The notes beneath the pieces were generated by a model. It saw nothing but the letters and a program-made list of their open reading frames with translations. It was not told the DNA's origin and did no database searches. From assembly GCA_035759585.1 (NCBI GenBank), contig DASTUP010000249.1, forward strand, positions 1 to 53,048: 53,048 nt of DNA, in the 5' to 3' direction. A program made the position numbers and the translations under genes. Of this stretch, positions 3,988 through 39,668 are shown piece by piece; the stretch's first letter is position 1, and every line of letters starts with the position of its first letter. Source of the stretch: Gemmatimonadales bacterium. GTDB taxonomy: Bacteria; Gemmatimonadota; Gemmatimonadetes; Gemmatimonadales; GWC2-71-9.

Positions 3988-4075
3988 GTCATCCCGAGGG
4001 AGCAACGCGACCGAGGGATCTGCCAACCGGTCTCCGGAACTCGCCAGGTAGATCCCTCGCTGCGCTCGGGATGAC
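3988..4075. repeat. Pair of inverted REP-like palindromic units forming a hairpin downstream of mlaD
   Basis: GTCATCCCGAGGGAGCAACGCGACCGAGGGATC (3988-4020) faces GATCCCTCGCTGCGCTCGGGATGAC (4051-4075). The 30-nt spacer has its own CCGGTCTCCGG stem. The unit resembles the widespread GTCATCC.GAGCG.AGCGA.GGATC-type bacterial repeat, which produces spurious 'PERSEGS'/'SRAQRGI' ORFs like those seen here. Confidence 0.55.
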
Positions 4076-28683: not shown

Positions 28684-31600
28684 TCAGCCCGGCCGCCTGA
28701 CGAGCACTTCGTGGCGCCGGCCGTCGTCCGCGAGCGGGATGCTGCCGTCGGCCGTACGTTCCCCGTCGACGGTCGCTTCGATCGACGTGACCCCCGGATC
28801 GCGGCGGATCGTGATCGCATAGGTCGCCTCGCCGAAGCGGTATTCGATCGCGTATTCCTGCCACGCTGCGGGGGCGCGCGGCTCGATGACGAGGGCATTG
28901 CCCCGCTTGGTCAGCCCGAGGATGCCTTCGACGCCCACCCGGTACATCCAGCTCGCGGAGCCCGTGTACCAGGTCCATCCGCCGCGGCCCAGATGGCCCT
29001 CCGCGGTGTACACGTCGGCGGCGACGACGTACGGCTCCACCTTGTATGTCGCCACGTCCTCGGGGGTCTTCGCGTGGGTCAGCGGATTGATCATCTGGTA
29101 CAGCTCGAGCGCGCGGTCTCCGTCGCCGCGTAGCGCCGTCGCGAGCACCGCCCAGAGCGCGGCATGCGTATACTGGGCGCCGTTCTCGCGCACGCCGGGG
29201 AGGTAGCCCTTGATGTAGCCGGGGTCGAGCGGCGTCTCGTCGAAGGGCGGCGTGAGCAGCATGATCAGCCGGGCATCCTCGCGCACCAGGTGCTCCTCGA
29301 GCGACTGCATGGCGCGCGCCTGTCGCTCCGGATCGCCTGCACCGGAGATGACGCTCCAGCTCTGCGCGATCGAATCGATCCGGCATTCCTGGCTCTGGGC
29401 CGAGCCGAGGGGGGTGCCGTCGTCGAACCAGGCGCGACGATACCATGCGCCGTCCCAGGCGTGTTCCTCTATCGCCGCAGAGTAGGCATCGGCCTGTCCA
29501 CGGAACTCCGCCGCCGTTGCGTCGTCGGCGCGCGCTTCCGCGAGCCGCGCGAAGCTGCGCAGCGTCGTGATGAGGAACCAGGCGAGCCAGACGCTCTCTC
29601 CGCGGCCCTCCACCCCCACGCGGTTCATCCCGTCGTTCCAGTCACCGATGCCGATGAGCGGATGGCCGTGCACGCCGGTCGTGCACGCGCGCCTGAGCGC
29701 GCGAACGCAATGCTCGTATACGCTCGCGCGCTCCTCGGTGACCTGCGGGAGGTCATAGACCTCGTGCTCGTCCGGCTCGAGCGGGCGCATCGACAGGAAG
29801 GGCACTTCCTCGTCCAGCACCGCCGCATCGCCGGTGACCGTCACGTAGTGCTCGGCGACGAACGGCAGCCATGCGAGGTCGTCGGAGAATCGCGTCCTGA
29901 CGCCGCGGCCGCTGTGGGGGTGCCACCAGTGCTGCACATCGCCCTCGAGGAACTGGCGCGATGCGGCTCGCAGGAGATGCTCGCGCGCGATGCCGGGCTC
30001 GGCGTGCAGGAAGGCCATCGAGTCCTGGAGCTGGTCGCGGAAGCCGTACGCACCGCTGCTCTGGTAGAGTGCCGTGCGTCCCCACATCCGGCACGAGAGC
30101 GCCTGATAGAGGGTCCATACGTTGATCATCGCGTCGAACGACGACTCCGGCGTGCTGACCTTGACCACCGAGAGGCGGCGTGACCACGCGTCGATCGAAT
30201 GGTCGAGCGCAGCCCGGGCCGTGCGGCCGTCGCGGTGCTCGATCACCAGGCTCCGGGCCTCGTCCGCCGTTGCCGCCGCACCGAGGATCAGGACGATCTC
30301 GCGCGTTTCGCCGGGATCGAGCTCGAGGATGCACTGCAGTGCGGCGCACGGATCCCGGCCGACCCCCGTCCGCCCGCCGAGCGGCTCGCCGTCCACGAGC
30401 GCGGCAGGCGCGGCGGGTGTGCCGTTCCGTCCGAGAAAGTCCCGGCGGCTCGCGGTGTGCCCCGAAACTGCCGCGCTGATGGAGTGGAAGGCGAGCCATG
30501 ATGCGAAGCTCGCATCGAAGGTGTTCGATGCGTAGATCGTACCCGTCTCGGCATCGAACGACGTATGGATCGTGTGCTGGGTATGCTCGCGCAGCGCGCC
30601 CAGCGACCATTCGAGATAGCTCGTGATGACGAGGCGCCGGGGTCGATCGCTCTCGTTCGTCACGCGGAGCACCGAGACGCGCACCGGCGCCTCGTCGGCC
30701 ATGCCGAGCGTGAGGTGCGTCCGGATCTCCTCGTAGACGGATTCGAAAGCGGAGTAGCCCTGCCCGTGCCGGACGGTGAAGGCCGCGCCCGTCTCGACCG
30801 GCCCCGGCGTCGCGGACCAGATGCCGCCGACTTCGGCATCCTGGAGGTAGATGGCGTCGGTCACCGGATCGCTCACCGGATCGTTGTGCCACGGCGTCAG
30901 CCGGTAGAAGTGACTGTTCTCGGCCCAGCTGCATCCTCCGCCGCGCTCCGACACGATGAAGCCGCCTGCCTGGTTGGCAACGACGTTGATCCAGGGTGCG
31001 GGAGGTACGCGGTCGCCCGCCACCTCGATCTCGTACGCGCCGTCCGACGTCAGGCGCCCGAACCCGTTGTCGAGGCCCGGAGCGAGACTTCGGTGCGAGA
31101 TCTGCTTCGCGCCCGGCGGATGATGCGGTGCCGATTCGGATGCGAGCGGTGAAAGGAAGGAAGGCAGCACGCCCCCGATGCGCCGCACCGTACGGGCCAC
31201 GCGAGACTGGCGGCGCCGCTCGGGGCTCCGCGGCTCGACCGGAAGCGCCTCGTCGACTTCCGTGTCCTCATCCGCCGCGCCGTATGCGGCCGCGTCGGCC
31301 GTGATCCGGCCGAGCGCGCGGCCGTCGCAGGCGATGTGCACGCGCGCGGTCGCGCGCAGCATGGCCAGCTCCGTCGCGCCGATCTGGTCGGCCTGGCGGA
31401 TGAACACGCCGCCCGACTGATCGAACACGCCGCTTTCTCCGACTGCGTGCAGCAGCGCCGTGACGCGGTCGGAGAGGTCGCCGAGATACTGCGTGGGCTG
31501 GGTCTTGAGGATGACGAGATCCACCGTCATGCCGCGCCGGCGCCAGTACCGGTGTGCGGTGAGGAGCTGGCGCAGCGTCGGCAGTCCGTCGGCGGAATCG

Positions 31601-34600
31601 ATCGTGGCGAGGAGGATCGGCCAGTCTCCCGACACCCCGACGGACCAGAGGAGTGGCTGCGAGCCGCGGTTGAGCTGGAGCTCCGCCTGCGGCGCACGCC
31701 GCGCGGCTGCGCCGTAGAGGAGGTCACCTGCGAGCTCCTGGAACACCGCCGCCTCCGCCGGGCTGACGCCGAGCTCGCGCAACTCGATCTGCGTCGAGGT
31801 CCACGCCAGGTCGAGCGCGCGCTGGGTCGCGTGCGGGTCGTGATAGCGATCGGCGAGCTCGAACGCCAGCTCCCGGTTCGATGCGATGAGCGTCGTGAAC
31901 GACACGCTCGCGGACTGGCCGGGCTCGAGCCTGAGCCGCACCCGCAGGGCAAAGACGGGATCGAGCACGGCGCCCGTCGTGCCCGACAGCGGCGCACCCG
32001 TTTCCACCGACGCCGGATTTGCCGTGGAGCGGCCCCGGCCGATGAACCGCGCGCGATCGGTCTCGCACGTCACCGGCTCGGCGAGCTCGGGTCCCGTGGC
32101 CACGACGTGCACGCACCAGATCGCCGCCTCCTTGCCCGAGCGCGGCCGCCGCGTGGCGGTGATGGCCGAGCACCAGGCATGGTACTCGGTCTCCACGAAG
32201 AGGTTGGCGAATGCCGGGTGCGAGCGATCCGATTCGGGGGTCGTGAGCACGATCTCGCCGTAGCTCGTGAGGTCCACCTCCCGTGCCTGGTCGCTGTTGT
32301 TCGTCACCGTGACGCGCCGCACCTCCGCGGAGTCCTCGGGAACGACCGCCACCTCGGTCCGCGTCTCGATGGGGCCGTCGGCCCGATGGATGGTCACCCG
32401 GTCGGTTGCGAGGAACGCGCGGTACCAGTCTGCCGGCGCTCCCACCGGCTGGTGCGTCGCGGACCAGTACGCCCCGGAGTGATTGTCGCGGACGTAGCAG
32501 AACTGGCCGGTCGAGTCGCGCGTTCCGTCCGATCGCCACCGGGTCACGGCCAGGCCCTCGTACCGGCTGTACCCGCCCCCGCAATGGCTGATCATGATCG
32601 TGTACGGGAGCTGGCCGAGGAGCGCGACATGCGGACGCGGTGTGTCCGCCACATCGATCTCGCGGACCGCAGGTCGCTCCATCTCCGGCTCGGGGAGCGC
32701 CTCGTCGAGCCGGGCGCCCTGCCCGCGCTGGATGACGAGCCGGCGCGGAATCCGCTCGTGGAGCAGGAGCTCGGCGGCCCGCACCATCGGATCGGCGTGG
32801 AACCGTCGCTGCCACAGCCGCCCGGTGAGGATGTTCGTCAGCGCGACGAGACCCATGCCGATGTGATGCGCCATGTACGTCCGGATGATGGCGTACTCCC
32901 GGTCCGGCTCGGGGCGCGTGAAATCCACCGCATCCCGGAAGCCGTACGGCCCGAGCAGTCCGAGGGCCTCGAGCTGCGTGAGGTTCGGCAGGGCACGCTT
33001 CGCTTCGACCATGGCCGCGAGGAGCGAGGCATACGGCGCCACGACGAGATCGCGGCCGAGCCCGCGCTTGAGCGCGAGATCGGGCACGCCGAATGCCCGG
33101 TACTGATAGGTGTAGCTCCGGTCGCGCAGGTTGTAGGCGCTCTCGCTGATCCCCCAGGGGACGCTCCGCTCCGTCCCATAGGCGGCATGCCGCTGCACCG
33201 CACCCTCGTACGTCTGCGCGAGCACGGTGAACGGGAACGACCGCATGACGAGCATCGGCATCAGGTACTCGAACATGCTGCCGCTCCACGACACCAGCGC
33301 CGGCGCACCGCTCGCGCGGGTGAGCGTGCGGCCGAGGCGGAACCAGTGCTCCACGGGAACGTCGTTCTTGGCGATCGCGAGGAAGCTGGCGAGCCGCGCC
33401 TCGGAGGCGAGCAGGTCGTAATAGGAGCCGTCGAGCGTGTGGCTCGTCTGCTGGAAGCCGATGGCGAAGAGCCGGCGCTGCCCGTCGAAGAGAAAGCCGA
33501 AGTCCATGTCCATCGCATACTGGAAGGCGCGCTCGCCGAGCGCCTCCAGCCGCGAGACGATGCGCTGCGCATCAGGCGAGGCGTCCGCGAGATCGCGCAG
33601 GGTAGCTGCCGGGCGCGTCGCGGTGAGCGTCAGCCATTGCCGTTGCGATTCGATCAGGGCGAGCGCCCACGAGACCCAGTAGGTGTCCTCCGGACCGCGC
33701 GCGTGGAGCGCGGCCTCGGCCTGCCGCAGCAGCCCGGTCAGGTGCTCGAGCACGGGGAGGGTGAGTGCGACAGTGCGCGCCCCCCTGGCGGCGGCGCGCG
33801 CAGCAGCGAGCTCTGGCGGCAGCGGAGGCTGGCCGGTCGGGACGTCGTCGTCCCGGCGCTTTTCCGCGGCCGCGAGGAGGCTCAGGCTGGCCACATCGAG
33901 GGCCGTCTCGACCGATCTCACGAGCTTCGAATCGACGATCGGGCTCTCGACGAGCTGGAGGCACGCCTGCCGCAGGGCGATGAGGTGTCCCGCGAGATTG
34001 CCGCTGTCCACCGTGGAGATGTATCCCGGCTCGAGAACGCGGAGATCCCTGAGATCGTACCAGTTGTAGAAGTGGCCCCGGAACCGCCGCATCCGCTCGA
34101 GTGAGCGCAGCGCCCGCTCCAGCCGCTCCGCCGCCTGCTCGATCGAGAGAAATCCGAGATCGGCCGCACTCACGACGGAGAGCAGCTGGAGGCCGATGTT
34201 CGTCGGCGAGGTGCGCAGCGCGACGGTCGGGGTGGGGGCCTCCTGAAAATTGTCGGGTGCGAGCCAGTTCGACTCCTCCGTCACGAAGGTGTCGAAGTAC
34301 CGCCAGTGGAGCAGGGCGTACCGGATGGCCTGGCCGCGTGACTCCGGCGAGAGGCGCTGCTCGCGCGCGACCGCTGGCGCGCCGAGCGCATGCGCGATGG
34401 CCGGAGCGACGGCCCACGCAATCACGAAGGGAAGCAGGCCGAGCGCGAGCTGCCAGAGCGGGGCCGGGTTCGCACTGCCGGGCAGCGCCCGCCAGATGAT
34501 GATGCCAAGCACTGCCGCCGCGACGAGTGCTGCCGGCCACATGGCCCGCCACACCACCCGCACCGAATCCTGCATCGCGCGCTCCGCCTGCACGGCGGTC

Positions 34601-37086
34601 TGCCACTCCAGGAGGTGCTTCCGCGAGACACCCATGCGCCACAGGGCCCGGAGGATGGCGTCGAGCGAGTTCCCCGCCTGGTGCGGCAGGTAGACGACTG
34701 CCAGGGCGAACTGCTGCGCGCTCGTGACGGCGTCGCGTCCGACCGCGCCGTAATACGCGCGCCATGACTTGTCGAACGGCGGCCGCACGAGCGCGAGGAG
34801 CAGGGCCACGACCCAGGGTGCCGCGATCGCGCCGAGCCCGATGAGCGTCCAGCGCACGGGCGACACCGGCAGGATGATCCATCCCGCCAGCAGGAACACG
34901 AGCTGCGCGATCTCCACCACGCTGCGCCGCAGGTTGTCCACGATCTTCCAGCGCGACAGGAGCGACAGCCGGTTCGGCTCGCGCCCTTCCGGCGCCGGCA
35001 CGCTCGGGCGGAGCCACGGAAGGAGCTGCCAGTCTCCGCGGGTCCAGCGGTGCTTGCGGCGCGTGTACGTGAGATACCGCGCCGGATAATCGTCGTAGAC
35101 GATCACGTCGGTCGCGAGGCCGGCGCGCGCGTAGTTTCCCTCGATCAGGTCGTGCGAAAGGAGCGTGTTCTCGGGAAACCGGCCGCCGGTGGCCTGCTCG
35201 AACGCAGCGACGTCATAGGCACCTTTCCCGGCGAAGCTCCCTTCGCCGTAGAGGTCCTGATAGACATCGGACACCGCCGTCGTGTACGGATCGACGCCGG
35301 GATGTCCGGAATGGATCGCAGCGAAGAGTGAGCGGTGCGCGCTCGGCAGCGAGACGCCGACGCGCGGCTGCAGGATTCCGTAGCCGCGCACCACGCGTCC
35401 CCGCGCGGGATCGTAGACGGCGCGATTGAGCGGATGCGCCAAGGCGCCGATGAGCACCGCGGCCGATTCGGGCGGCAGCACGGTGTCGGAGTCGAGCGTG
35501 ATGACGTAGCGCACGCTGCGGAGCGGCGCCACGTCTCCGACGATCGTGGAGAACCCTTCACCCTCTCCGCCGAGGACGAACCGGTTGAACTCGGCGAGCT
35601 TGCCCCGCTTCCGCTCCCAGCCCATCCAGACGCCCTCGTGCGGATTCCAGCGCCGGGGGCGGTGAAAGAGATAGAACGCGTCGCCGGCCGACGGCGCATA
35701 CCGCCTGTTGAGCTCCCGGACCCCTTCCGCAGCTGCGGCCACGATCCCGGCGTCTTCCGGGCGTGCCTCCTGCGCGGCATCGGTGAAGTCGCTGAGGAGG
35801 GCGAAGTAGAGATTCGCCTCCCGGTTGGCCAGGAACTGCACTTCCAGGTTCTCGAGCGCCTCCTCGACCGCCGCGACGCTGCCGAAGAGCGTCGGGATCA
35901 CCACGGCCGTGCGGAACTCGGGCGGGATGCCGTGCTCGCGAAGATCGAGCTTGGGAAGGAGCCGCGGCGGCAGGAGGGCCGTCACGAGCTGGTTCACCAC
36001 GCTGACGGCGATGTCGTTGGCCGGAATGAACGCGAGCAGCGCCACCGCAAGCCATTCCACGCGGACGCCCTCGCCGCCGAGCCAGAAGAGCGCGGCGACG
36101 GCGCCGGCGGTCGCGGCGGCGAGTCCCCCGACGAAGACGAAGTCCGGGTGATGGCGAATCCAGCGATACATCGCGTCGCCGAGATCGGGCCGGTAGCCCG
36201 TGAGCCGCTCGAGTTCCGGCAGCCCTTCGTCCACGAGGTAGTAGCCGACATGCGCGATGCGCGCGTCGTCCGTAACGCGGGCGGCGCCCTGGCGCGCGCA
36301 CTCGATCGCGAGCTCCGCGATCCCGGCCTCCGATTTCCGGGTCCGCTTCGCGATGTTCTCGACCACGTGCCGGTACCGGTCGCGCGTCTCGAAGGTCATG
36401 CGGGAGTAGTCGCCCGAGGGATCGGTGCGCAGCACCTGCTCGATGCGGCTCTGGGACTCGACGAACGTCTTCCAGTCCATGCGCCCCACGGCGCGCAGGC
36501 TGGAGATGCTGTTCGCCATCGCGATCTGCGTGAGGGCGAGCCGCTGCGTCGAGCGTGAGGTCGCCTCCTCCGCGCCGAACGCCTCGTCCGTCACCCACTG
36601 CTCCAGCCGATGGAGCACCGGATGCGCGCCGCCTTCCGTGCGGAGCTGCTGCAGGAAGCGCGCGACGAAGATCGCGTCGAGCGGCGGCGGCTTCGCGACG
36701 AACGCCTTCAGCGCTGCGTCGAGCTCGGAGTCGTCCCCTTCGGCGGTGAGGATCTTCGCGACGGCGGCGTCGGCTTCCTCGAGGCGGTCGAGCCGCTGCA
36801 CGGTCCGGAGCGCCATGCGCCGGACGTTCTCGATGAGGCCGAGGCGGAGCATCGCGGGGATGGCCCAGAGCTCGCCGATCGTGAGCGTCGTCGACTGCTG
36901 GAATGCCGCGACGAAGCCCGACGTGTTCTGCAGGTCGATCCGGCCCTCGGTGTGCGAGATGAGCGTGATCGCGAGCTCGTACACCCGCGGATAGCCGGCG
37001 AGCGGTCCGTTGGCGAGCTCCGGCAGCTCGCGGTAGTAGCCGCCCGGCAGGCTCTCGCGGACCTCGCCGATGTGCTCCTGCACCAC
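28684..37086 (-). CDS. cgs: Cyclic beta-1,2-glucan synthase (Cgs/NdvB/ChvB family: GT84 glycosyltransferase plus GH94-like phosphorylase domain)
   Basis: 2800-aa ORF. N-terminal TM region, GT motifs (LLSDFTDA, TLDSDT, RKHRWTRGDWQLL), further TM helices, then a large cellobiose-phosphorylase-like C-terminal region. The coordinates use the first canonical start (GTG 37086), but the frame stays open and protein-like up to 37404 (see findings). Confidence 0.9.
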   Translation of the reverse strand: MVQEHIGEVRESLPGGYYRELPELANGPLAGYPRVYELAITLISHTEGRIDLQNTSGFVAAFQQSTTLTIGELWAIPAMLRLGLIENVRRMALRTVQRLDRLEEADAAVAKILTAEGDDSELDAALKAFVAKPPPLDAIFVARFLQQLRTEGGAHPVLHRLEQWVTDEAFGAEEATSRSTQRLALTQIAMANSISSLRAVGRMDWKTFVESQSRIEQVLRTDPSGDYSRMTFETRDRYRHVVENIAKRTRKSEAGIAELAIECARQGAARVTDDARIAHVGYYLVDEGLPELERLTGYRPDLGDAMYRWIRHHPDFVFVGGLAAATAGAVAALFWLGGEGVRVEWLAVALLAFIPANDIAVSVVNQLVTALLPPRLLPKLDLREHGIPPEFRTAVVIPTLFGSVAAVEEALENLEVQFLANREANLYFALLSDFTDAAQEARPEDAGIVAAAAEGVRELNRRYAPSAGDAFYLFHRPRRWNPHEGVWMGWERKRGKLAEFNRFVLGGEGEGFSTIVGDVAPLRSVRYVITLDSDTVLPPESAAVLIGALAHPLNRAVYDPARGRVVRGYGILQPRVGVSLPSAHRSLFAAIHSGHPGVDPYTTAVSDVYQDLYGEGSFAGKGAYDVAAFEQATGGRFPENTLLSHDLIEGNYARAGLATDVIVYDDYPARYLTYTRRKHRWTRGDWQLLPWLRPSVPAPEGREPNRLSLLSRWKIVDNLRRSVVEIAQLVFLLAGWIILPVSPVRWTLIGLGAIAAPWVVALLLALVRPPFDKSWRAYYGAVGRDAVTSAQQFALAVVYLPHQAGNSLDAILRALWRMGVSRKHLLEWQTAVQAERAMQDSVRVVWRAMWPAALVAAAVLGIIIWRALPGSANPAPLWQLALGLLPFVIAWAVAPAIAHALGAPAVAREQRLSPESRGQAIRYALLHWRYFDTFVTEESNWLAPDNFQEAPTPTVALRTSPTNIGLQLLSVVSAADLGFLSIEQAAERLERALRSLERMRRFRGHFYNWYDLRDLRVLEPGYISTVDSGNLAGHLIALRQACLQLVESPIVDSKLVRSVETALDVASLSLLAAAEKRRDDDVPTGQPPLPPELAAARAAARGARTVALTLPVLEHLTGLLRQAEAALHARGPEDTYWVSWALALIESQRQWLTLTATRPAATLRDLADASPDAQRIVSRLEALGERAFQYAMDMDFGFLFDGQRRLFAIGFQQTSHTLDGSYYDLLASEARLASFLAIAKNDVPVEHWFRLGRTLTRASGAPALVSWSGSMFEYLMPMLVMRSFPFTVLAQTYEGAVQRHAAYGTERSVPWGISESAYNLRDRSYTYQYRAFGVPDLALKRGLGRDLVVAPYASLLAAMVEAKRALPNLTQLEALGLLGPYGFRDAVDFTRPEPDREYAIIRTYMAHHIGMGLVALTNILTGRLWQRRFHADPMVRAAELLLHERIPRRLVIQRGQGARLDEALPEPEMERPAVREIDVADTPRPHVALLGQLPYTIMISHCGGGYSRYEGLAVTRWRSDGTRDSTGQFCYVRDNHSGAYWSATHQPVGAPADWYRAFLATDRVTIHRADGPIETRTEVAVVPEDSAEVRRVTVTNNSDQAREVDLTSYGEIVLTTPESDRSHPAFANLFVETEYHAWCSAITATRRPRSGKEAAIWCVHVVATGPELAEPVTCETDRARFIGRGRSTANPASVETGAPLSGTTGAVLDPVFALRVRLRLEPGQSASVSFTTLIASNRELAFELADRYHDPHATQRALDLAWTSTQIELRELGVSPAEAAVFQELAGDLLYGAAARRAPQAELQLNRGSQPLLWSVGVSGDWPILLATIDSADGLPTLRQLLTAHRYWRRRGMTVDLVILKTQPTQYLGDLSDRVTALLHAVGESGVFDQSGGVFIRQADQIGATELAMLRATARVHIACDGRALGRITADAAAYGAADEDTEVDEALPVEPRSPERRRQSRVARTVRRIGGVLPSFLSPLASESAPHHPPGAKQISHRSLAPGLDNGFGRLTSDGAYEIEVAGDRVPPAPWINVVANQAGGFIVSERGGGCSWAENSHFYRLTPWHNDPVSDPVTDAIYLQDAEVGGIWSATPGPVETGAAFTVRHGQGYSAFESVYEEIRTHLTLGMADEAPVRVSVLRVTNESDRPRRLVITSYLEWSLGALREHTQHTIHTSFDAETGTIYASNTFDASFASWLAFHSISAAVSGHTASRRDFLGRNGTPAAPAALVDGEPLGGRTGVGRDPCAALQCILELDPGETREIVLILGAAATADEARSLVIEHRDGRTARAALDHSIDAWSRRLSVVKVSTPESSFDAMINVWTLYQALSCRMWGRTALYQSSGAYGFRDQLQDSMAFLHAEPGIAREHLLRAASRQFLEGDVQHWWHPHSGRGVRTRFSDDLAWLPFVAEHYVTVTGDAAVLDEEVPFLSMRPLEPDEHEVYDLPQVTEERASVYEHCVRALRRACTTGVHGHPLIGIGDWNDGMNRVGVEGRGESVWLAWFLITTLRSFARLAEARADDATAAEFRGQADAYSAAIEEHAWDGAWYRRAWFDDGTPLGSAQSQECRIDSIAQSWSVISGAGDPERQARAMQSLEEHLVREDARLIMLLTPPFDETPLDPGYIKGYLPGVRENGAQYTHAALWAVLATALRGDGDRALELYQMINPLTHAKTPEDVATYKVEPYVVAADVYTAEGHLGRGGWTWYTGSASWMYRVGVEGILGLTKRGNALVIEPRAPAAWQEYAIEYRFGEATYAITIRRDPGVTSIEATVDGERTADGSIPLADDGRRHEVLVRRPG

Positions 37087-37404
37087 GTAGTAGTTGTCGA
37101 GCAGCCAGTCGCCGGCGGGGCCGACCTCGCGTCCCGCGTCGGCGGCATCGAGCAGCCGGCTGTGCGCGTCGGCGAGGATGCCGCGGGTGCTGTCCAGCCG
37201 CGCGAGAAGCGGCGTCCGGCGGCGTCCGCCTGCCGCGAGCCGCTGGGATTTCGCGAGGGATTTCGCACGCTCGGTCAGCCGCTCGACGCCGAGCAGGTCG
37301 CCGCGGATGGGGCCGGTCAGGACGGTTTCGTGCGGGTCCGTCCGGCGGCGGAGCAGGCGCGATACGACGCGGGGAAGTTCGAAGGTGGGGATGGCGACGA
37401 TCTC

Positions 37405-38367
37405 CTAGGTCACGAGCGCCGTGACGAGCGCTGCAAGGGCGACGATCAGCGCGCCGAGTGCCACGGCGAGTATCTGGCGCTCCCGGGGTGTCGGCCGTGC
37501 CGCCCCCTCGCGCGCTTCGTAGAGTGATTGCGACATCACGCTCTGCGCGGCCATCACTTCCTCCATGCCCTGGATGAAGTGACGCTGATGGATCCGCTTT
37601 TCGAGATCGGGTCCCGGCTCGAACGTGGCGAGCTGTGCGGCCTTGAGCACCGCGTTCTTGATGTCGCCGCCGCTCCGCGGAAACCGCTCCGCCAGCTCGC
37701 GGAAGTTCACGTCGGGCGCGAGCGGCGTCTTCGTCGCATGAAGCTGGGCCCGCCAGATCCGCTCGCGCTCCTCGAGACCGGGCAGGTCGAAGCGGATGTG
37801 CGTGCGGATCCGGCGCTCGAACGCCGGGTCGAGGTTCGCGGCGAGGTTGGTCGCGAACACGACGACGCCGGGAAACCGCTCGACCTCGTTGAGGAGGACA
37901 TTGACCGTCGCGTTCGCTTCACGCTCGTACCCGTGGCTCAGCGACGTGAAGCGGCGGCTCGCGATCGCATCCGCTTCGTCGAAGAAGAGCACGGCGTCCT
38001 GCTTCTCCGCGTCGCGGAACACCGACGCCACGTGCTTCGACGTCTGTCCGACCCAGCGCGATTCGAGCTCCGCATAACGGACCACGAGCAGCTTCCGGCC
38101 GAGCGTCGCCGCGATCGCCTCGGCGGCGATGGTCTTCCCGGTGCCGGGCGGCCCCGCGAAATGGAGCGCCAGGCCGGCCGTGCCTCCGTGCCGCTCGGCC
38201 AGGCCCCAGCGATCGAAGATCAGGCTCTGCTTCCGGATCAGGGCCAGCGCCTGGCGGATCGCGTCGAGCGTCGACGGCGGCAGAATGACGTCCTGAAACG
38301 TCCGCCTCGGCTCCACCACATCGAAGAGCGGGCGGCCGAAGATGAGGTCGCGAATCGAATCGGACAC
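37405..38367 (-). CDS. AAA+ ATPase with a C-terminal transmembrane anchor
   Basis: Walker A GPPGTGKT, Walker B VLFFDEAD, sensor-1 FATN and FERRI. The C-terminal hydrophobic helix ILAVALGALIVALAALVTALVT comes directly before the TAG stop. Confidence 0.85.
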   Translation of the reverse strand: MSDSIRDLIFGRPLFDVVEPRRTFQDVILPPSTLDAIRQALALIRKQSLIFDRWGLAERHGGTAGLALHFAGPPGTGKTIAAEAIAATLGRKLLVVRYAELESRWVGQTSKHVASVFRDAEKQDAVLFFDEADAIASRRFTSLSHGYEREANATVNVLLNEVERFPGVVVFATNLAANLDPAFERRIRTHIRFDLPGLEERERIWRAQLHATKTPLAPDVNFRELAERFPRSGGDIKNAVLKAAQLATFEPGPDLEKRIHQRHFIQGMEEVMAAQSVMSQSLYEAREGAARPTPRERQILAVALGALIVALAALVTALVT

Positions 38368-38543
38368 CGGCTGGCTGGCCTCCTGTCACTCCCGGGTTTC
38401 CCGACGTAACGTACACCGGTCCGGGACCGGGTCCTGCGGCGCAGGTCACGCTGATCTCCATCCGGGCCCCTTATCTTGCGACGAGCCGCGTGCAGATTAC
38501 CGTGCATGGCCATCCTGACTCTCGAGAGGATTTCGGCACGCTG

Positions 38544-39101
38544 ATGTCCCGCTTCGGAAACCCCGCCTCGACCGCGCTCGATGACGCCCAGGCTTACAGT
38601 GCCGCCCTCCTCGAGCTGCTCGGCGAGCGCGACGCACTCGCGGTGCTGCGCGAGATGCCGGCGGCGCTGAGGAAGGCAGTCGAGGGCATGAGCCCATCCG
38701 GGCTCGCCGCTCCCGAGGCGCCCGGCAGGTGGTCGGTGGCCCAGGTCCTCGATCACCTTTCCGACTCCGAGCTCGTCGGGTCGTTCCGCTTCCGGATGGT
38801 GCTGGCGCAGGACCGGCCGGCGCTGCCCGGCTATGACCAGGATGCGTGGGTGACCCGGCTGCACCCGGCGGCCGCCGATACGCGAAAGGCGGCCGAGCTG
38901 GCACTCGGCCGCTTCACGCTCCTGCGCGAGGCCAATGTCGAGCTCTTCGAGCGGGCGACACCAGCCGACCTCCAGCGCATCGGTGTCCACGCGGAGCGGG
39001 GAGAGGAAACCCTCGCCCACATGATGAAGCTGTATGCCGGGCACGATCTCGTGCATCGGCGGCAGCTCGAGCGGATTCGCGGAGCCGTCGCAACGAGGTG
39101 A
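38544..39101 (+). CDS. DinB-family (DinB_2) protein
   Basis: WSVAQVLDHLSDSELV...YAGHDLVHRRQLERI shows the DinB His-triad pattern. ATG 38544 is preferred over GTG 38490. Confidence 0.75.
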   Translation: MSRFGNPASTALDDAQAYSAALLELLGERDALAVLREMPAALRKAVEGMSPSGLAAPEAPGRWSVAQVLDHLSDSELVGSFRFRMVLAQDRPALPGYDQDAWVTRLHPAAADTRKAAELALGRFTLLREANVELFERATPADLQRIGVHAERGEETLAHMMKLYAGHDLVHRRQLERIRGAVATR

Positions 39102-39155
39102 TCCGGGCCGCTGTATCCTGACCGCCGAAACCGAGCCACAATGCAAGGAGGAGCC

Positions 39156-39668
39156 ATGCTCCCGAGACATAGCCTGATGATACCGCTCGTCATGGCCGTC
39201 GCCGCGTGCACCGCCGACACGAGCGATCGTGCCGCCGCCGGCACCGACACCATGCCCGCGGCGCCCGCTCCAGCGGCCGCAGCCAGTGCGGCCAGCGCCG
39301 GCGGAATGGTCGATCCCGACGCCGCCTCCCAGGCCGATCTGGTTGCCGCCGGGATGGACAGCGCAACGGCCGCCGCGGTCGTCGCCGGCCGGCCGTATCA
39401 GGACATGCGCGCGGTGGACGCCGTGCTTGCGCGCTCGCTCGACGAGGCCCGGCGCGATTCGATCTACACCCGCGTCTGGAAGCCGATCGACCTCAATTCC
39501 GCCACGCCCGAGGAGATCGAGCTCATTCCCGGCGTCGGGCCCCGCATGCGTCACGAGTTCGAGGAGTACCGGCCCTACACGTCCATGGAGCAGTTCCGTC
39601 GCGAGATCGGCAAGTACGTCGACTCGACCGAAGTCGCGCGCCTCGAGCAGTACGTCACCATCAGGTAG
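39156..39668 (+). CDS. Lipoprotein with helix-hairpin-helix motifs (ComEA-like)
   Basis: Lipobox LVMAVAAC, an Ala/Pro-rich linker, then DLNSATPEEIELIPGVGPRMRHEFEEYRPY (HhH). ATG 39156 is preceded by AGGAGG. ATG 39141 is an alternative start. Confidence 0.65.
   Translation: MLPRHSLMIPLVMAVAACTADTSDRAAAGTDTMPAAPAPAAAASAASAGGMVDPDAASQADLVAAGMDSATAAAVVAGRPYQDMRAVDAVLARSLDEARRDSIYTRVWKPIDLNSATPEEIELIPGVGPRMRHEFEEYRPYTSMEQFRREIGKYVDSTEVARLEQYVTIR

What the first reader, a model, noticed from the sequence alone, without database searches (positions are those of the whole stretch)
37084..37410. Glucan-synthase frame is open and conserved-looking for 106 codons upstream of its first canonical start, and a single in-frame TAG separates it from the AAA+ gene
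**What the sequence shows.** Reading the minus strand upstream of GTG 37086, the Cgs frame continues without a stop to 37404. It encodes EIVAIPTFELPRVVSRLLRRRTDPHETVLTGPIRGDLLGVERLTERAKSLAKSQRLAAGGRRRTPLLARLDSTRGILADAHSRLLDAADAGREVGPAGDWLLDNYYV-VQEHIGE.

**Why the true N-terminus is probably upstream.** From memory, Cgs/NdvB-family proteins begin with a GPIR.ELF..ERLE.HA..LA segment followed by ..WLLDNF.L..E.I. GTG 37086 therefore sits inside a conserved motif.

**The anomaly.** None of these 106 codons is ATG, GTG or TTG; I checked every codon. The terminating TAG (37405-37407) is the stop codon of the AAA+ ATPase gene, which lies in the same frame.

**Possible explanations.**
- Non-canonical initiation. 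ATC at 37390-37392 lies 9 nt after an AGGAG at 37402-37406, and there are several CTG codons.
- TAG read-through giving a fusion of about 3227 aa. This is topologically awkward, because the AAA+ protein ends in a TM helix.
- A mutated or mis-sequenced start codon.
- A genuinely truncated enzyme.
Basis: partly seen in the sequence, partly recalled or inferred. Interest (0 to 1): 0.7.

Follow-up and report, generated by a model that had tools for sequence, protein, structure and literature searches.

The report
Glucan synthase gene starts at ATC
A giant cyclic-glucan synthase gene of a soil Gemmatimonadales bacterium has no ordinary start codon; like dozens of its relatives it most likely starts at a conserved ATC/ATT codon behind a strong ribosome-binding site, which explains why gene finders cut off its first 100 residues.

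Summary
On the minus strand, 106 sense codons without ATG, GTG or TTG lie between TAG 37407-37405 (stop of an AAA+ ATPase gene) and GTG 37086. They are coding: GC3 is 0.89, and against the closest relative 42 codons differ synonymously and 10 change the amino acid. They match the N-terminal domain of the solved Agrobacterium Cgs.

Contigs from four independent soil or rhizosphere metagenome studies reproduce the junction, so it is not a sequencing error.

Among 80 Gemmatimonadota cgs loci plus the window:
- 25 have no canonical start before the conserved N-terminal motif.
- 37 carry ATC, ATT or ATA at one homologous position. In 26 of these, GAGG or GGAG lies 5-10 nt upstream (background about 4-6%).
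- Downstream of that codon, substitutions concentrate at third codon positions and there are no indels. Upstream they are flat, with many indels not divisible by three.

The best reading is initiation at ATC 37392-37390, with the ribosome-binding site AGGAG at 37406-37402.

TAG read-through, truncation at GTG 37086 and a base-call error are rejected. The TAG abuts the gene only because the window lacks the roughly 80-90 nt spacer that its three closest relatives have.

This is a new member of a known kind: conserved near-cognate start codons, as in infC, pcnB and ccpN. No direct translation data were available.

The parts
28684..37392 (-). [quoted passage not shown]
   Evidence: Pfam finds Glyco_trans_2_3, Glycoamylase, GH94 supersandwich and GH94 catalytic domains. 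The N-terminal 500 aa match A. tumefaciens Cgs 8rf0/8rf9 at E about 1e-56. The start is inferred.
37390..37392 (-). Proposed initiation codon ATC (AUC), presumably decoded as fMet.
   Evidence: It is homologous to the ATC/ATT/ATA seen at the same position in 36 related loci. The coding substitution pattern begins here. Only four codons (GAG ATC GTC GCC) separate it from the in-frame stop.
37402..37406 (-). Shine-Dalgarno sequence AGGAG, 9 nt upstream of the ATC. Its first two bases belong to the AAA+ stop codon.
   Evidence: GAGG or GGAG lies at a 5-10 nt spacer in 26 of 37 ATH loci, against 3.7-5.7% for other ATH codons. The motif falls in different reading frames in L004, L006, L010 and L011.
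37405..37407 (-). TAG stop codon of the AAA+ ATPase gene, in frame with cgs.
   Evidence: L001-L003 have a stop at the same position. TAG ends 8 of 29 ORFs in the window.
37087..37389 (-). 101 codons of the Cgs N-terminal domain that lie upstream of the first canonical start and are lost in standard gene calls.
   Evidence: GC3 is 0.89. Against L001, 42 codons differ synonymously and 10 change the amino acid. The stretch aligns with A. tumefaciens Cgs residues 28-92. Public gene calls of relatives begin at M/V-QEHIGE.
37084..37086 (-). First canonical start-type codon (GTG). It sits inside the conserved WLLDNYYVVQEHI motif and is not the real start.
37399..37401 (-). Alternative in-frame ATC directly abutting the AGGAG (spacer 0). 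An unlikely start.
   Evidence: The equivalent ATC in L001-L003 has a 2-nt spacer, and the codon is not conserved in other loci.
37405..38367 (-). Upstream AAA+ ATPase gene (320 aa) with a hydrophobic C-terminal tail. In this genome it is probably co-transcribed with cgs.
   Evidence: Pfam AAA PF00004. It is 95-96% identical in L001-L003. Its tail and stop are conserved.

Best explanation
**Proposed start.** The cgs gene is translated from the near-cognate codon AUC at 37392-37390. The strong Shine-Dalgarno sequence AGGAG (37406-37402), 9 nt upstream, selects it. The product is a 2902-aa synthase with a complete cytoplasmic N-terminal domain.

**A trait of whole clades.** About 37 of 81 Gemmatimonadota cgs loci carry ATC, ATT or ATA at the homologous codon, behind a GAGG-type Shine-Dalgarno. 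Most of the others have GTG or ATG four codons further upstream, with no Shine-Dalgarno. Many of those carry a -10-like TANNNT box placed as in leaderless mRNAs.

**Inferred origin.** The GAG of the Shine-Dalgarno aligns with the canonical start codon of the other class. A GTG-GCC to GAG-GCC change may therefore have destroyed the old start and created the ribosome-binding site for Ile-5.

**Inferred function.** A weak start codon paired with a strong Shine-Dalgarno keeps synthesis of this very large membrane enzyme low. It may also make synthesis sensitive to IF3.

**Specific to this genome (inferred).** The roughly 80-90 nt AAA+-cgs spacer is missing, so cgs is probably co-transcribed with the AAA+ gene. 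Its initiation may be coupled to termination at the overlapping TAG.

**Shown versus inferred.** Shown: where coding begins, the conservation of the codon and of the Shine-Dalgarno, and the accuracy of the sequence. Inferred: that ribosomes really initiate there, that the first residue is Met, and the expression consequence.
For: 1. **Real N-terminus.** A. tumefaciens Cgs aligns from its residue 28 to residue 36 of the open frame. The N-terminal domain is a cytoplasmic scaffold that contacts all other domains (PMC10901819).
2. **The 102 codons from ATC to GTG 37086 are translated.** Against L001, L002 and L003, the counts of synonymous versus amino-acid-changing codons are 42 v 10, 30 v 15 and 37 v 13.
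3. **No canonical start is available.** 25 of 81 loci have no ATG/GTG/TTG between the in-frame stop and the conserved N-terminal motif. In WIN, L005, L007, L010, L014 and L080 the ATH is the first ATH/CTG/ACG-type codon after the stop, or the only one.
4. **Conserved codon.** 37 loci have ATH at the homologous codon: 28 ATC, 8 ATT, 1 ATA.
5. **Shine-Dalgarno.** GAGG or GGAG lies at a 5-10 nt spacer in 26 of 37, against 3.7% and 5.7% backgrounds. The spacer varies from 6 to 9 nt and the motif falls in different frames, so it is a nucleotide signal and not a codon.
6. **Coding boundary.** In the 75 nt downstream of ATH, substitutions by codon position are 86/79/214 with no indels. In the 75 nt upstream they are 183/175/163, with many indels not divisible by three.
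7. **Compensation.**
   - 0 of 39 loci with a canonical start have GAGG or GGAG.
   - L066, a GTG locus inside an ATH clade, has the motif decayed to GAAG.
8. **Sequence accuracy.** Four independent metagenome assemblies are identical across the junction.
9. **Accessibility.** The initiation region is not more structured than shuffled sequence (z = -0.05 for the window, +1.5 for L001).
10. **Precedent.** Conserved AUU and AUA starts with extended Shine-Dalgarno sequences give about 10% of AUG output in S. aureus (PMC13009471). AUA, AUC and AUU give 1-2% of AUG in E. coli, with Met at the N-terminus for AUC (10.1101/063800).
Against: - There is no direct evidence of initiation. No RNA run holds the locus, and there is no ribosome profiling or proteomics.
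- I chose the ATH codons partly by position, so the Shine-Dalgarno enrichment has some circularity. The pairs in the substitution count are not independent.
- The ATH is homologous to an internal Ile (MATAIPP...) of canonical-start homologues. ATC/ATT/ATA never becomes ATG in these 37 loci. Part of the codon's conservation could therefore be inherited, or reflect selection for Ile.
- 11 of the 37 lack a 4-mer Shine-Dalgarno (for example L012, L023).
- A 9-nt spacer lies at the long end of the 6-9 nt range seen in the related loci.
Confidence: 0.8

Rival explanations
1. Initiation occurs at another near-cognate codon in the same open frame. Candidates are the first ATC (37401-37399) or, downstream, CTG 37356 or CTG 37320.
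For: ATC 37401 is in frame, and L001-L003 and L017 also have ATC two codons before the conserved ATH. Several in-frame CTG codons exist.
Against: - ATC 37401 directly abuts the AGGAG (spacer 0; 2 nt in L001-L003) and is not conserved in most loci.
- The downstream CTGs are not conserved.
- The codons before those CTGs show a coding substitution pattern.
Confidence: 0.1
2. The enzyme is truly truncated and starts at GTG 37086 or 37083. The upstream 100 codons would be an untranslated relic.
For: GTG 37086 is the first canonical start. Public gene calls of relatives begin there, for example P0005, P0062 and P0082.
Against: - The upstream codons are under strong purifying selection, 42 synonymous against 10 amino-acid-changing versus L001, and keep GC3 at 0.89.
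- GTG 37086 lies inside the conserved WLLDNYYVVQEHI motif of the structured N-terminal domain.
- Many relatives have no GTG at that place and read WLLDNYHVIQ or similar.
Confidence: 0.03
3. TAG 37407-37405 is read through or recoded, giving an AAA+-Cgs fusion of about 3227 aa.
For: The two ORFs are in the same frame and separated by a single TAG.
Against: - In L001-L003 the AAA+ gene stops at the same place. A roughly 80-90 nt spacer follows, which differs between them by indels not divisible by three and shows no coding pattern.
- TAG terminates 8 of 29 ORFs in the window.
- The AAA+ protein ends in a conserved hydrophobic tail, whereas the Cgs N-terminal domain is cytoplasmic.
- The other cgs loci returned no tblastn match to the AAA+ protein.
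Confidence: 0.01
4. A sequencing or assembly error removed or altered an ordinary start codon, or created the TAG|GAG junction.
For: The window appears to come from a metagenome assembly. The spacer present in close relatives is missing.
Against: Contigs from four runs in four different studies cover 37340-37430 with no indel and no variant in 37390-37407. Relatives with the spacer also lack a canonical start.
Confidence: 0.01
5. An unusual mechanism supplies the N-terminus: a frameshift from an upstream ORF in another frame, RNA editing of AUC to AUG, or initiation by an elongator Ile-tRNA.
For: Nothing directly. ATH is never replaced by ATG in 37 loci, which would fit a need for Ile.
Against: - The upstream region shows no three-base periodicity in any frame and has indels not divisible by three.
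- In the window, the upstream sequence is the end of the AAA+ gene in the same frame.
- No Rfam element was found.
Confidence: 0.03

Closest known systems
Conserved near-cognate start codons with strong Shine-Dalgarno sequences: infC (AUU/AUA) and pcnB (AUU) in E. coli; ccpN (AUA), cvfC1 (AUU) and citZ (AUA) in Staphylococcus and Bacillus
   Same: - An AUH codon replaces AUG/GUG/UUG and is conserved across related species.
- A strong, correctly spaced Shine-Dalgarno accompanies it.
- The expected effect is low, possibly IF3-sensitive, initiation.
   Different: - The codon here is mostly AUC, the least documented of the three.
- The gene encodes a 2900-aa biosynthetic membrane enzyme, not a regulator or translation factor.
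- The phylum is Gemmatimonadota, where only about 22% of genes use a Shine-Dalgarno (PMC10783764).
- No experimental confirmation exists here.
- The Shine-Dalgarno appears to have been made from the former start codon.
[quoted passage not shown]
   Same: - The same domain set is present: N-terminal domain, GT, GH144-like or 'Glycoamylase' cyclase, and GH94 phosphorylase.
- The length is similar: 2902 aa against 2818 residues in chain 8rf0_A.
- The N-terminal 500 aa align at E about 1e-56 with the same offset.
   Different: - The organism is an uncultured soil Gemmatimonadales bacterium.
- The extreme N-terminus (about 30 aa) is not alignable to the Agrobacterium protein.
- The start codon is non-canonical.
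Translational coupling by termination-reinitiation at overlapping or abutting stop and start signals
   Same: In the window the upstream stop codon overlaps the cgs Shine-Dalgarno (TAGGAG), and the start lies 12 nt downstream of the stop.
   Different: The arrangement is specific to this genome. The closest relatives have a roughly 80-90 nt spacer with a GC-rich hairpin. Coupling is therefore not what defines the ATC start.

Membership tests
Genes with a conserved near-cognate (AUH) initiation codon (infC/pcnB/ccpN type) | No AUG/GUG/UUG is available between the upstream in-frame stop and sequence that is demonstrably translated. | tested here: met
   In the window only GAG ATC GTC GCC ATC follow the stop. 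25 of 81 loci have no canonical codon before the conserved N-terminal motif. Translation of the downstream codons is shown by 42 synonymous against 10 amino-acid-changing codons.
Genes with a conserved near-cognate (AUH) initiation codon (infC/pcnB/ccpN type) | The near-cognate codon is conserved at the homologous position in orthologues. | tested here: met
   28 ATC, 8 ATT and 1 ATA in 37 loci. ACG (L047), CTG (L076) and GTG (L066) occupy the same place.
Genes with a conserved near-cognate (AUH) initiation codon (infC/pcnB/ccpN type) | A Shine-Dalgarno lies at functional spacing upstream of the codon. | tested here: met
   GAGG or GGAG lies 5-10 nt upstream in 26 of 37 loci, against a 3.7-5.7% background, and independent of frame. 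In the window it is AGGAG with a 9-nt spacer.
Genes with a conserved near-cognate (AUH) initiation codon (infC/pcnB/ccpN type) | The coding signature begins at the codon. | tested here: met
   Substitutions by codon position are 86/79/214 with no indels downstream, and 183/175/163 with indels not divisible by three upstream.
Genes with a conserved near-cognate (AUH) initiation codon (infC/pcnB/ccpN type) | Initiating ribosomes or an N-terminal Met peptide are observed at the codon, and output is reduced relative to AUG. | not testable with these tools
   No RNA run holds the locus. There are no ribosome profiling or proteomics data.
[quoted passage not shown] | Domain order of GT, GH144-like cyclase and GH94 phosphorylase in one polypeptide of about 2800-2900 aa. 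| tested here: met
   Pfam hits by residue of the 2906-aa open frame:
- Glyco_trans_2_3 at 633-873. E = 2.7e-5; 24.5 bits, below the 27-bit cutoff.
- Glycoamylase at 1328-1533.
- GH94 supersandwich at 1589-1838.
- GH94 catalytic at 2407-2830.
[quoted passage not shown] | An N-terminal scaffold domain homologous to that of a characterised Cgs. | tested here: met
   phmmer against PDB 8rf0_A gives E = 7.9e-57, with query 36-500 aligned to chain 28-488.
[quoted passage not shown] | Six transmembrane helices, the autoglycosylated Tyr primer and production of cyclic glucan. | not tested
   These features are described in PMC10901819. I did not examine them here.
Programmed stop-codon read-through or recoding that fuses two ORFs | The two ORFs stay in frame across relatives, and the sequence around the stop is conserved as coding. 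| tested here: not met
   L001-L003 have a spacer after the same stop, with indels not divisible by three and no coding pattern. The other cgs loci returned no tblastn match to the AAA+ protein.

The most novel reading that the evidence does not exclude
Deep Gemmatimonadales lineages have kept a deliberately weak AUC/AUU start for cgs over long evolutionary time. It arose when the ancestral, probably leaderless, GTG start mutated to GAG. That single change created the GAGG ribosome-binding site which now drives initiation at the former Ile-5 codon. The weak-codon/strong-Shine-Dalgarno pair may act as an IF3-sensitive valve that ties cyclic-glucan synthesis to growth or stress state.
Probability: 0.3. 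Interest if true: 0.65.

Novelty: new member of a known kind. Interest (0 to 1): 0.5.

Why it matters
**Annotation.** Standard gene finders allow only ATG, GTG and TTG. In this family they give truncated or wrongly extended proteins. Public calls start at '(M/V)(V/I/L)QEHIGE', 'MVAxxQR' or 'MTGPIRG', among others. That removes up to about 100 residues of a domain which contacts every other part of the enzyme. Structure prediction, family profiles and any expression construct built from such calls would lack the true N-terminus.

**Biology.** Very few conserved bacterial AUH starts are documented, mainly infC, pcnB, ccpN and cvfC1. This case adds a large natural series of about 37 genomes with AUC, AUU or AUA. 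A built-in contrast class of about 39 genomes has GTG or ATG without a Shine-Dalgarno. The series is suited to studying how start-codon strength and ribosome-binding-site strength co-evolve. It also shows how a gene can switch between leaderless and Shine-Dalgarno-led initiation.

Tried and rejected
- **RNA evidence.** A search for RNA runs holding 36000-38400 returned only unrelated tiny runs with 0% of the words. No transcript start or expression data could be obtained.
- **Known RNA elements.** An Rfam scan of four related loci found no known RNA element upstream of cgs.
- **Promoters and terminators.** A consensus scan of 37200-38700 found none.
- **A genome-wide habit?** I asked whether non-canonical starts are common in this genome. 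Among 29 ORFs in the window with coding-type GC3, cgs has by far the longest stretch before its first canonical start. None of the five next-longest ORFs that I tested has a Pfam domain cut by its first canonical start. This rests on one 53-kb window and cannot settle the question.
- **TAG reassignment.** Rejected, because TAG ends 8 of 29 ORFs.
- **Absence of start codons as a statistic.** It is weak on its own: an internal run of 100 codons without a start-type codon exists in the same ORF.
- **mRNA structure.** Folding the initiation region shows no significant structure, so a structural switch is not indicated.
- **Failed call.** A first protein-alignment call failed on a frame error and was redone in Python.

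Full report
**1.

Reading the minus strand, the AAA+ ORF (38367..37405, 320 aa, Pfam AAA) ends ...GTG ACC TAG, with TAG at 37407-37405. The next codons in the same frame are GAG ATC GTC GCC ATC CCC ACC TTC...

From GAG 37404 there are 106 sense codons with no ATG, GTG or TTG, up to GTG 37086. The frame then runs on to TGA 28686-28684, giving 2906 codons in all.

Pfam finds a GT2-type transferase, the 'Glycoamylase' (cyclase) domain and the two GH94 domains. [quoted passage not shown]

The absence of start-type codons is not remarkable on its own. The chance is about 0.004 at a given place, and an internal run of 100 such codons exists in the same ORF. What matters is where it falls:
- The stretch has the gene's own coding composition, GC3 0.89.
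- It aligns with the N-terminal domain of the solved A. tumefaciens Cgs. Chain residue 28 pairs with residue 36 of the open frame, and the WLLDN(H/Y)YV motif lies about 92 residues into the solved chain.
- GTG 37086 therefore sits inside a conserved motif of a structured domain. According to the structure paper, that domain is a cytoplasmic scaffold touching all other domains (PMC10901819).

**2. It is not an error**

Logan contigs from four soil or rhizosphere metagenome runs, belonging to four different studies, were laid on 37000-37800.
- Contigs from X1 (37307-37558), X2 (37000-37430) and X5 (37340-37542) are identical to the window.
- X3 (37000-37551) differs only at 37408. That change is synonymous, ACC>ACA in the last AAA+ codon.
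- No indel or joint was reported.

The TAG|GAG junction and both ATC codons are real.

**3. Relatives**

One scan of species-representative genomes returned 80 loci, all labelled Gemmatimonadota and nearly all Gemmatimonadales or Gemmatimonadaceae MAGs. They are 56-86% identical over the first 400 aa.

I anchored each locus on the invariant GPIRG and WLLDN motifs and walked upstream to the nearest in-frame stop. In 25 of 81 loci (80 plus the window) there is no ATG/GTG/TTG between that stop and the conserved (F/L)LSRL(F/L)xR motif that precedes GPIRG.

Instead, 37 loci carry ATC (28), ATT (8) or ATA (1) at one homologous position, usually 26 codons before the G of GPIRG. The window's ATC 37392-37390 is that codon.

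In WIN, L005, L007, L010, L014 and L080 the ATH is the first ATH/CTG/ACG-type codon after the stop, or the only one.

**4. A ribosome-binding site goes with it**

In 26 of the 37 loci, GAGG or GGAG lies 5-10 nt upstream of the ATH. The typical sequence is CCGAGG(T/C)C. The same test is positive for 3.7% of the other in-frame ATH codons in these genes, and for 5.7% of all ATH on both strands.

The spacer varies between 6 and 9 nt. In L004, L006, L010 and L011 the motif lies in a different reading frame relative to the ATH. It is therefore conserved as nucleotides, not as codons.

A published survey gives Gemmatimonadetes an extended anti-Shine-Dalgarno (UCACCUCCU) and Shine-Dalgarno use in only about 22% of genes (PMC10783764). 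GAGGU fits that profile. Several other genes in the window use GGAG or GAGG at 5-11 nt.

One caveat applies. I located the ATH by position, so the enrichment test is not fully blind.

**5. Coding begins at the ATH**

I compared ten groups of close relatives.
- In the 75 nt downstream of the ATH, substitutions fall 86/79/214 on codon positions 1/2/3, with no indels.
- In the 75 nt upstream they fall 183/175/163, with many indels of 1, 2, 7, 11, 13... nt.

Over the full 102 codons from ATC 37392 to GTG 37086, the counts of synonymous against amino-acid-changing codon differences are:

| Window versus | Synonymous | Amino-acid-changing |
|---|---|---|
| L001 | 42 | 10 |
| L002 | 30 | 15 |
| L003 | 37 | 13 |

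The pairs are not independent, but every group shows the same contrast.

**6. The TAG adjacency is a local accident**

L001-L003 have the same AAA+ gene, 95-96% identical. It has the same hydrophobic C-terminal tail and a stop at the same position.

They then have a roughly 80-90 nt spacer before ...ACCGAGGCCATCGCC ATC. The spacer contains a GC-rich hairpin and differs between the three by indels not divisible by three. In the window the spacer is cleanly absent, so TAG is joined to GAG and the Shine-Dalgarno becomes (T)AGGAG.

The following points together reject the read-through fusion:
- the non-coding spacer in the closest relatives;
- TAG ending 8 of 29 ORFs in the window;
- the conserved stop of the AAA+ gene;
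- the cytoplasmic location of the Cgs N-terminal domain.

In this genome cgs is probably co-transcribed with the AAA+ gene. No promoter-like or terminator-like site was found. Initiation may be coupled to termination, but that is inference.

**7. The other class of loci**

Thirty-nine loci have GTG, ATG or TTG, typically 28-30 codons before GPIRG (V/M-A-T-...).
- None of them has GAGG or GGAG at 5-10 nt.
- Fourteen have TANNNT ending 5-9 nt upstream of the start codon. The background is 1.1%, and the count in the ATH class is 0 of 36. This geometry is what a -10 box of a leaderless mRNA would show.
- The ATH class has TANNNT 27-62 nt upstream instead.

A protein alignment places the canonical M/V of this class on the GAG of the ATH-class Shine-Dalgarno. 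It places the ATH on Ile-5 of MATAIPP-type N-termini. So GTG-GCC to GAG-GCC, one transversion, would both kill the old start and create GAGG 8 nt upstream of the Ile-5 codon.

Other loci fit this picture:
- L066, a GTG locus nested in an ATH clade, has the motif decayed to GAAG.
- L047 has ACG at the ATH position.
- L076 has CTG at the ATH position.

A neighbour-joining tree of 360 aa puts the ATH loci in two large clades plus a few scattered ones. Its deep nodes are not reliable, so I do not claim a number of origins.

**8. Mechanism**

Most likely (confidence about 0.8), ribosomes bind AGGAG 37406-37402 and initiate with fMet-tRNA at AUC 37392-37390. The initiation region is no more structured than shuffled sequence.

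Published measurements set the expected output:
- AUA, AUC and AUU give 1-2% of AUG in E. coli, with Met at the N-terminus for AUC (10.1101/063800).
- AUU and AUA starts paired with extended Shine-Dalgarno sequences give about 10% of AUG in S. aureus (PMC13009471).

The expected consequence is low, possibly IF3-sensitive, synthesis of a 2902-aa membrane enzyme.

ATH never becomes ATG in 37 loci. That fits selection for a weak start. It is also what an internal Ile codon would show, and this is the main residual doubt. In several loci, however, the frame is closed a few codons upstream of the ATH, which leaves no alternative start.

**9. Comparison and novelty**

This works like infC, pcnB, ccpN and cvfC1: a conserved near-cognate start with a strong Shine-Dalgarno. 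It meets every sequence-level criterion of that class. The experimental criterion could not be tested.

It is a new member of a known kind, with three unusual points:
- the codon is mostly AUC;
- the gene is a giant biosynthetic enzyme;
- the family offers a natural contrast between Shine-Dalgarno plus AUH and probably leaderless GUG/AUG.

Public gene calls for this family start at many different wrong places.

**10. Verdict**

Interest is moderate (0.5).

Noticed in passing
window 37402-37407 versus L001:3905-4000, L002 and L003 (alignment A1): The window lacks the roughly 80-90 nt AAA+-cgs spacer that its three closest relatives have. That spacer holds a GC-rich hairpin (CCCCGCTTCCCGCGGGG) and a TATGTT box. 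It also holds an out-of-frame three-codon mini-ORF, ATG TTC CCN stop, whose third codon and stop vary (CCA TAG, CCC TAG, CCG TGA).
   Followed up: partly
L028, L036, L038, L039, L048, L055, L058, L059, L065, L068, L073, L075 and others, just upstream of the match start (about 3990-4000 in most): cgs loci with a canonical GTG or ATG start have no Shine-Dalgarno (0 of 39). Fourteen of the 39 have a -10-like TANNNT (TATCTT, TAGGTT, TAGCTT, TATGTT) ending 5-9 nt before the start codon, against a 1.1% background. This suggests leaderless mRNAs with GUG starts.
   Followed up: partly
L005, L013 and L019, about 20-60 nt upstream of the ATC start: Tandem heptamer repeats (AGCCCAT / CCCATAG, three or more copies) lie directly upstream of the cgs ribosome-binding site. 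They place TAG in all three frames.
   Followed up: no
window 37405-37470 (minus strand); L001-L003 equivalents: The AAA+ ATPase ends in a conserved, roughly 22-residue hydrophobic tail (ILAVALGALIVALAALVTALVT). It looks like a tail-anchored AAA+ protein. Among the 80 loci, it is found next to cgs only in this small clade.
   Followed up: partly
window 38238-39554 (minus strand) versus 38346-39101 and 39102-39668 (plus strand): The 438-aa minus-strand ORF upstream of the AAA+ gene has no Pfam hit and looks spurious. Two plus-strand ORFs with coding-type GC3 lie there, one of them a DinB_2 protein. The AAA+ gene therefore appears to head the AAA+-cgs unit, divergent from the DinB gene.
   Followed up: partly
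proteins P0002-P0120: Public gene calls of Gemmatimonadota Cgs N-termini are highly inconsistent. Starts are seen at (M/V)(V/I/L)QEHIGE, MVAxxQR, MTGPIRG, MLGAEHL, or far upstream in non-coding sequence. Homologues with a canonical start begin uniformly with MAT(A/V)IPP.
   Followed up: partly
L047 about 4001; L076 about 2350; L030 about 4001: At the position of the ATH start, L047 has ACG (GAGG 6 nt upstream) and L076 has CTG. L030 has ATC three codons after a TAA, with no Shine-Dalgarno. These are further near-cognate variants of the same start.
   Followed up: partly
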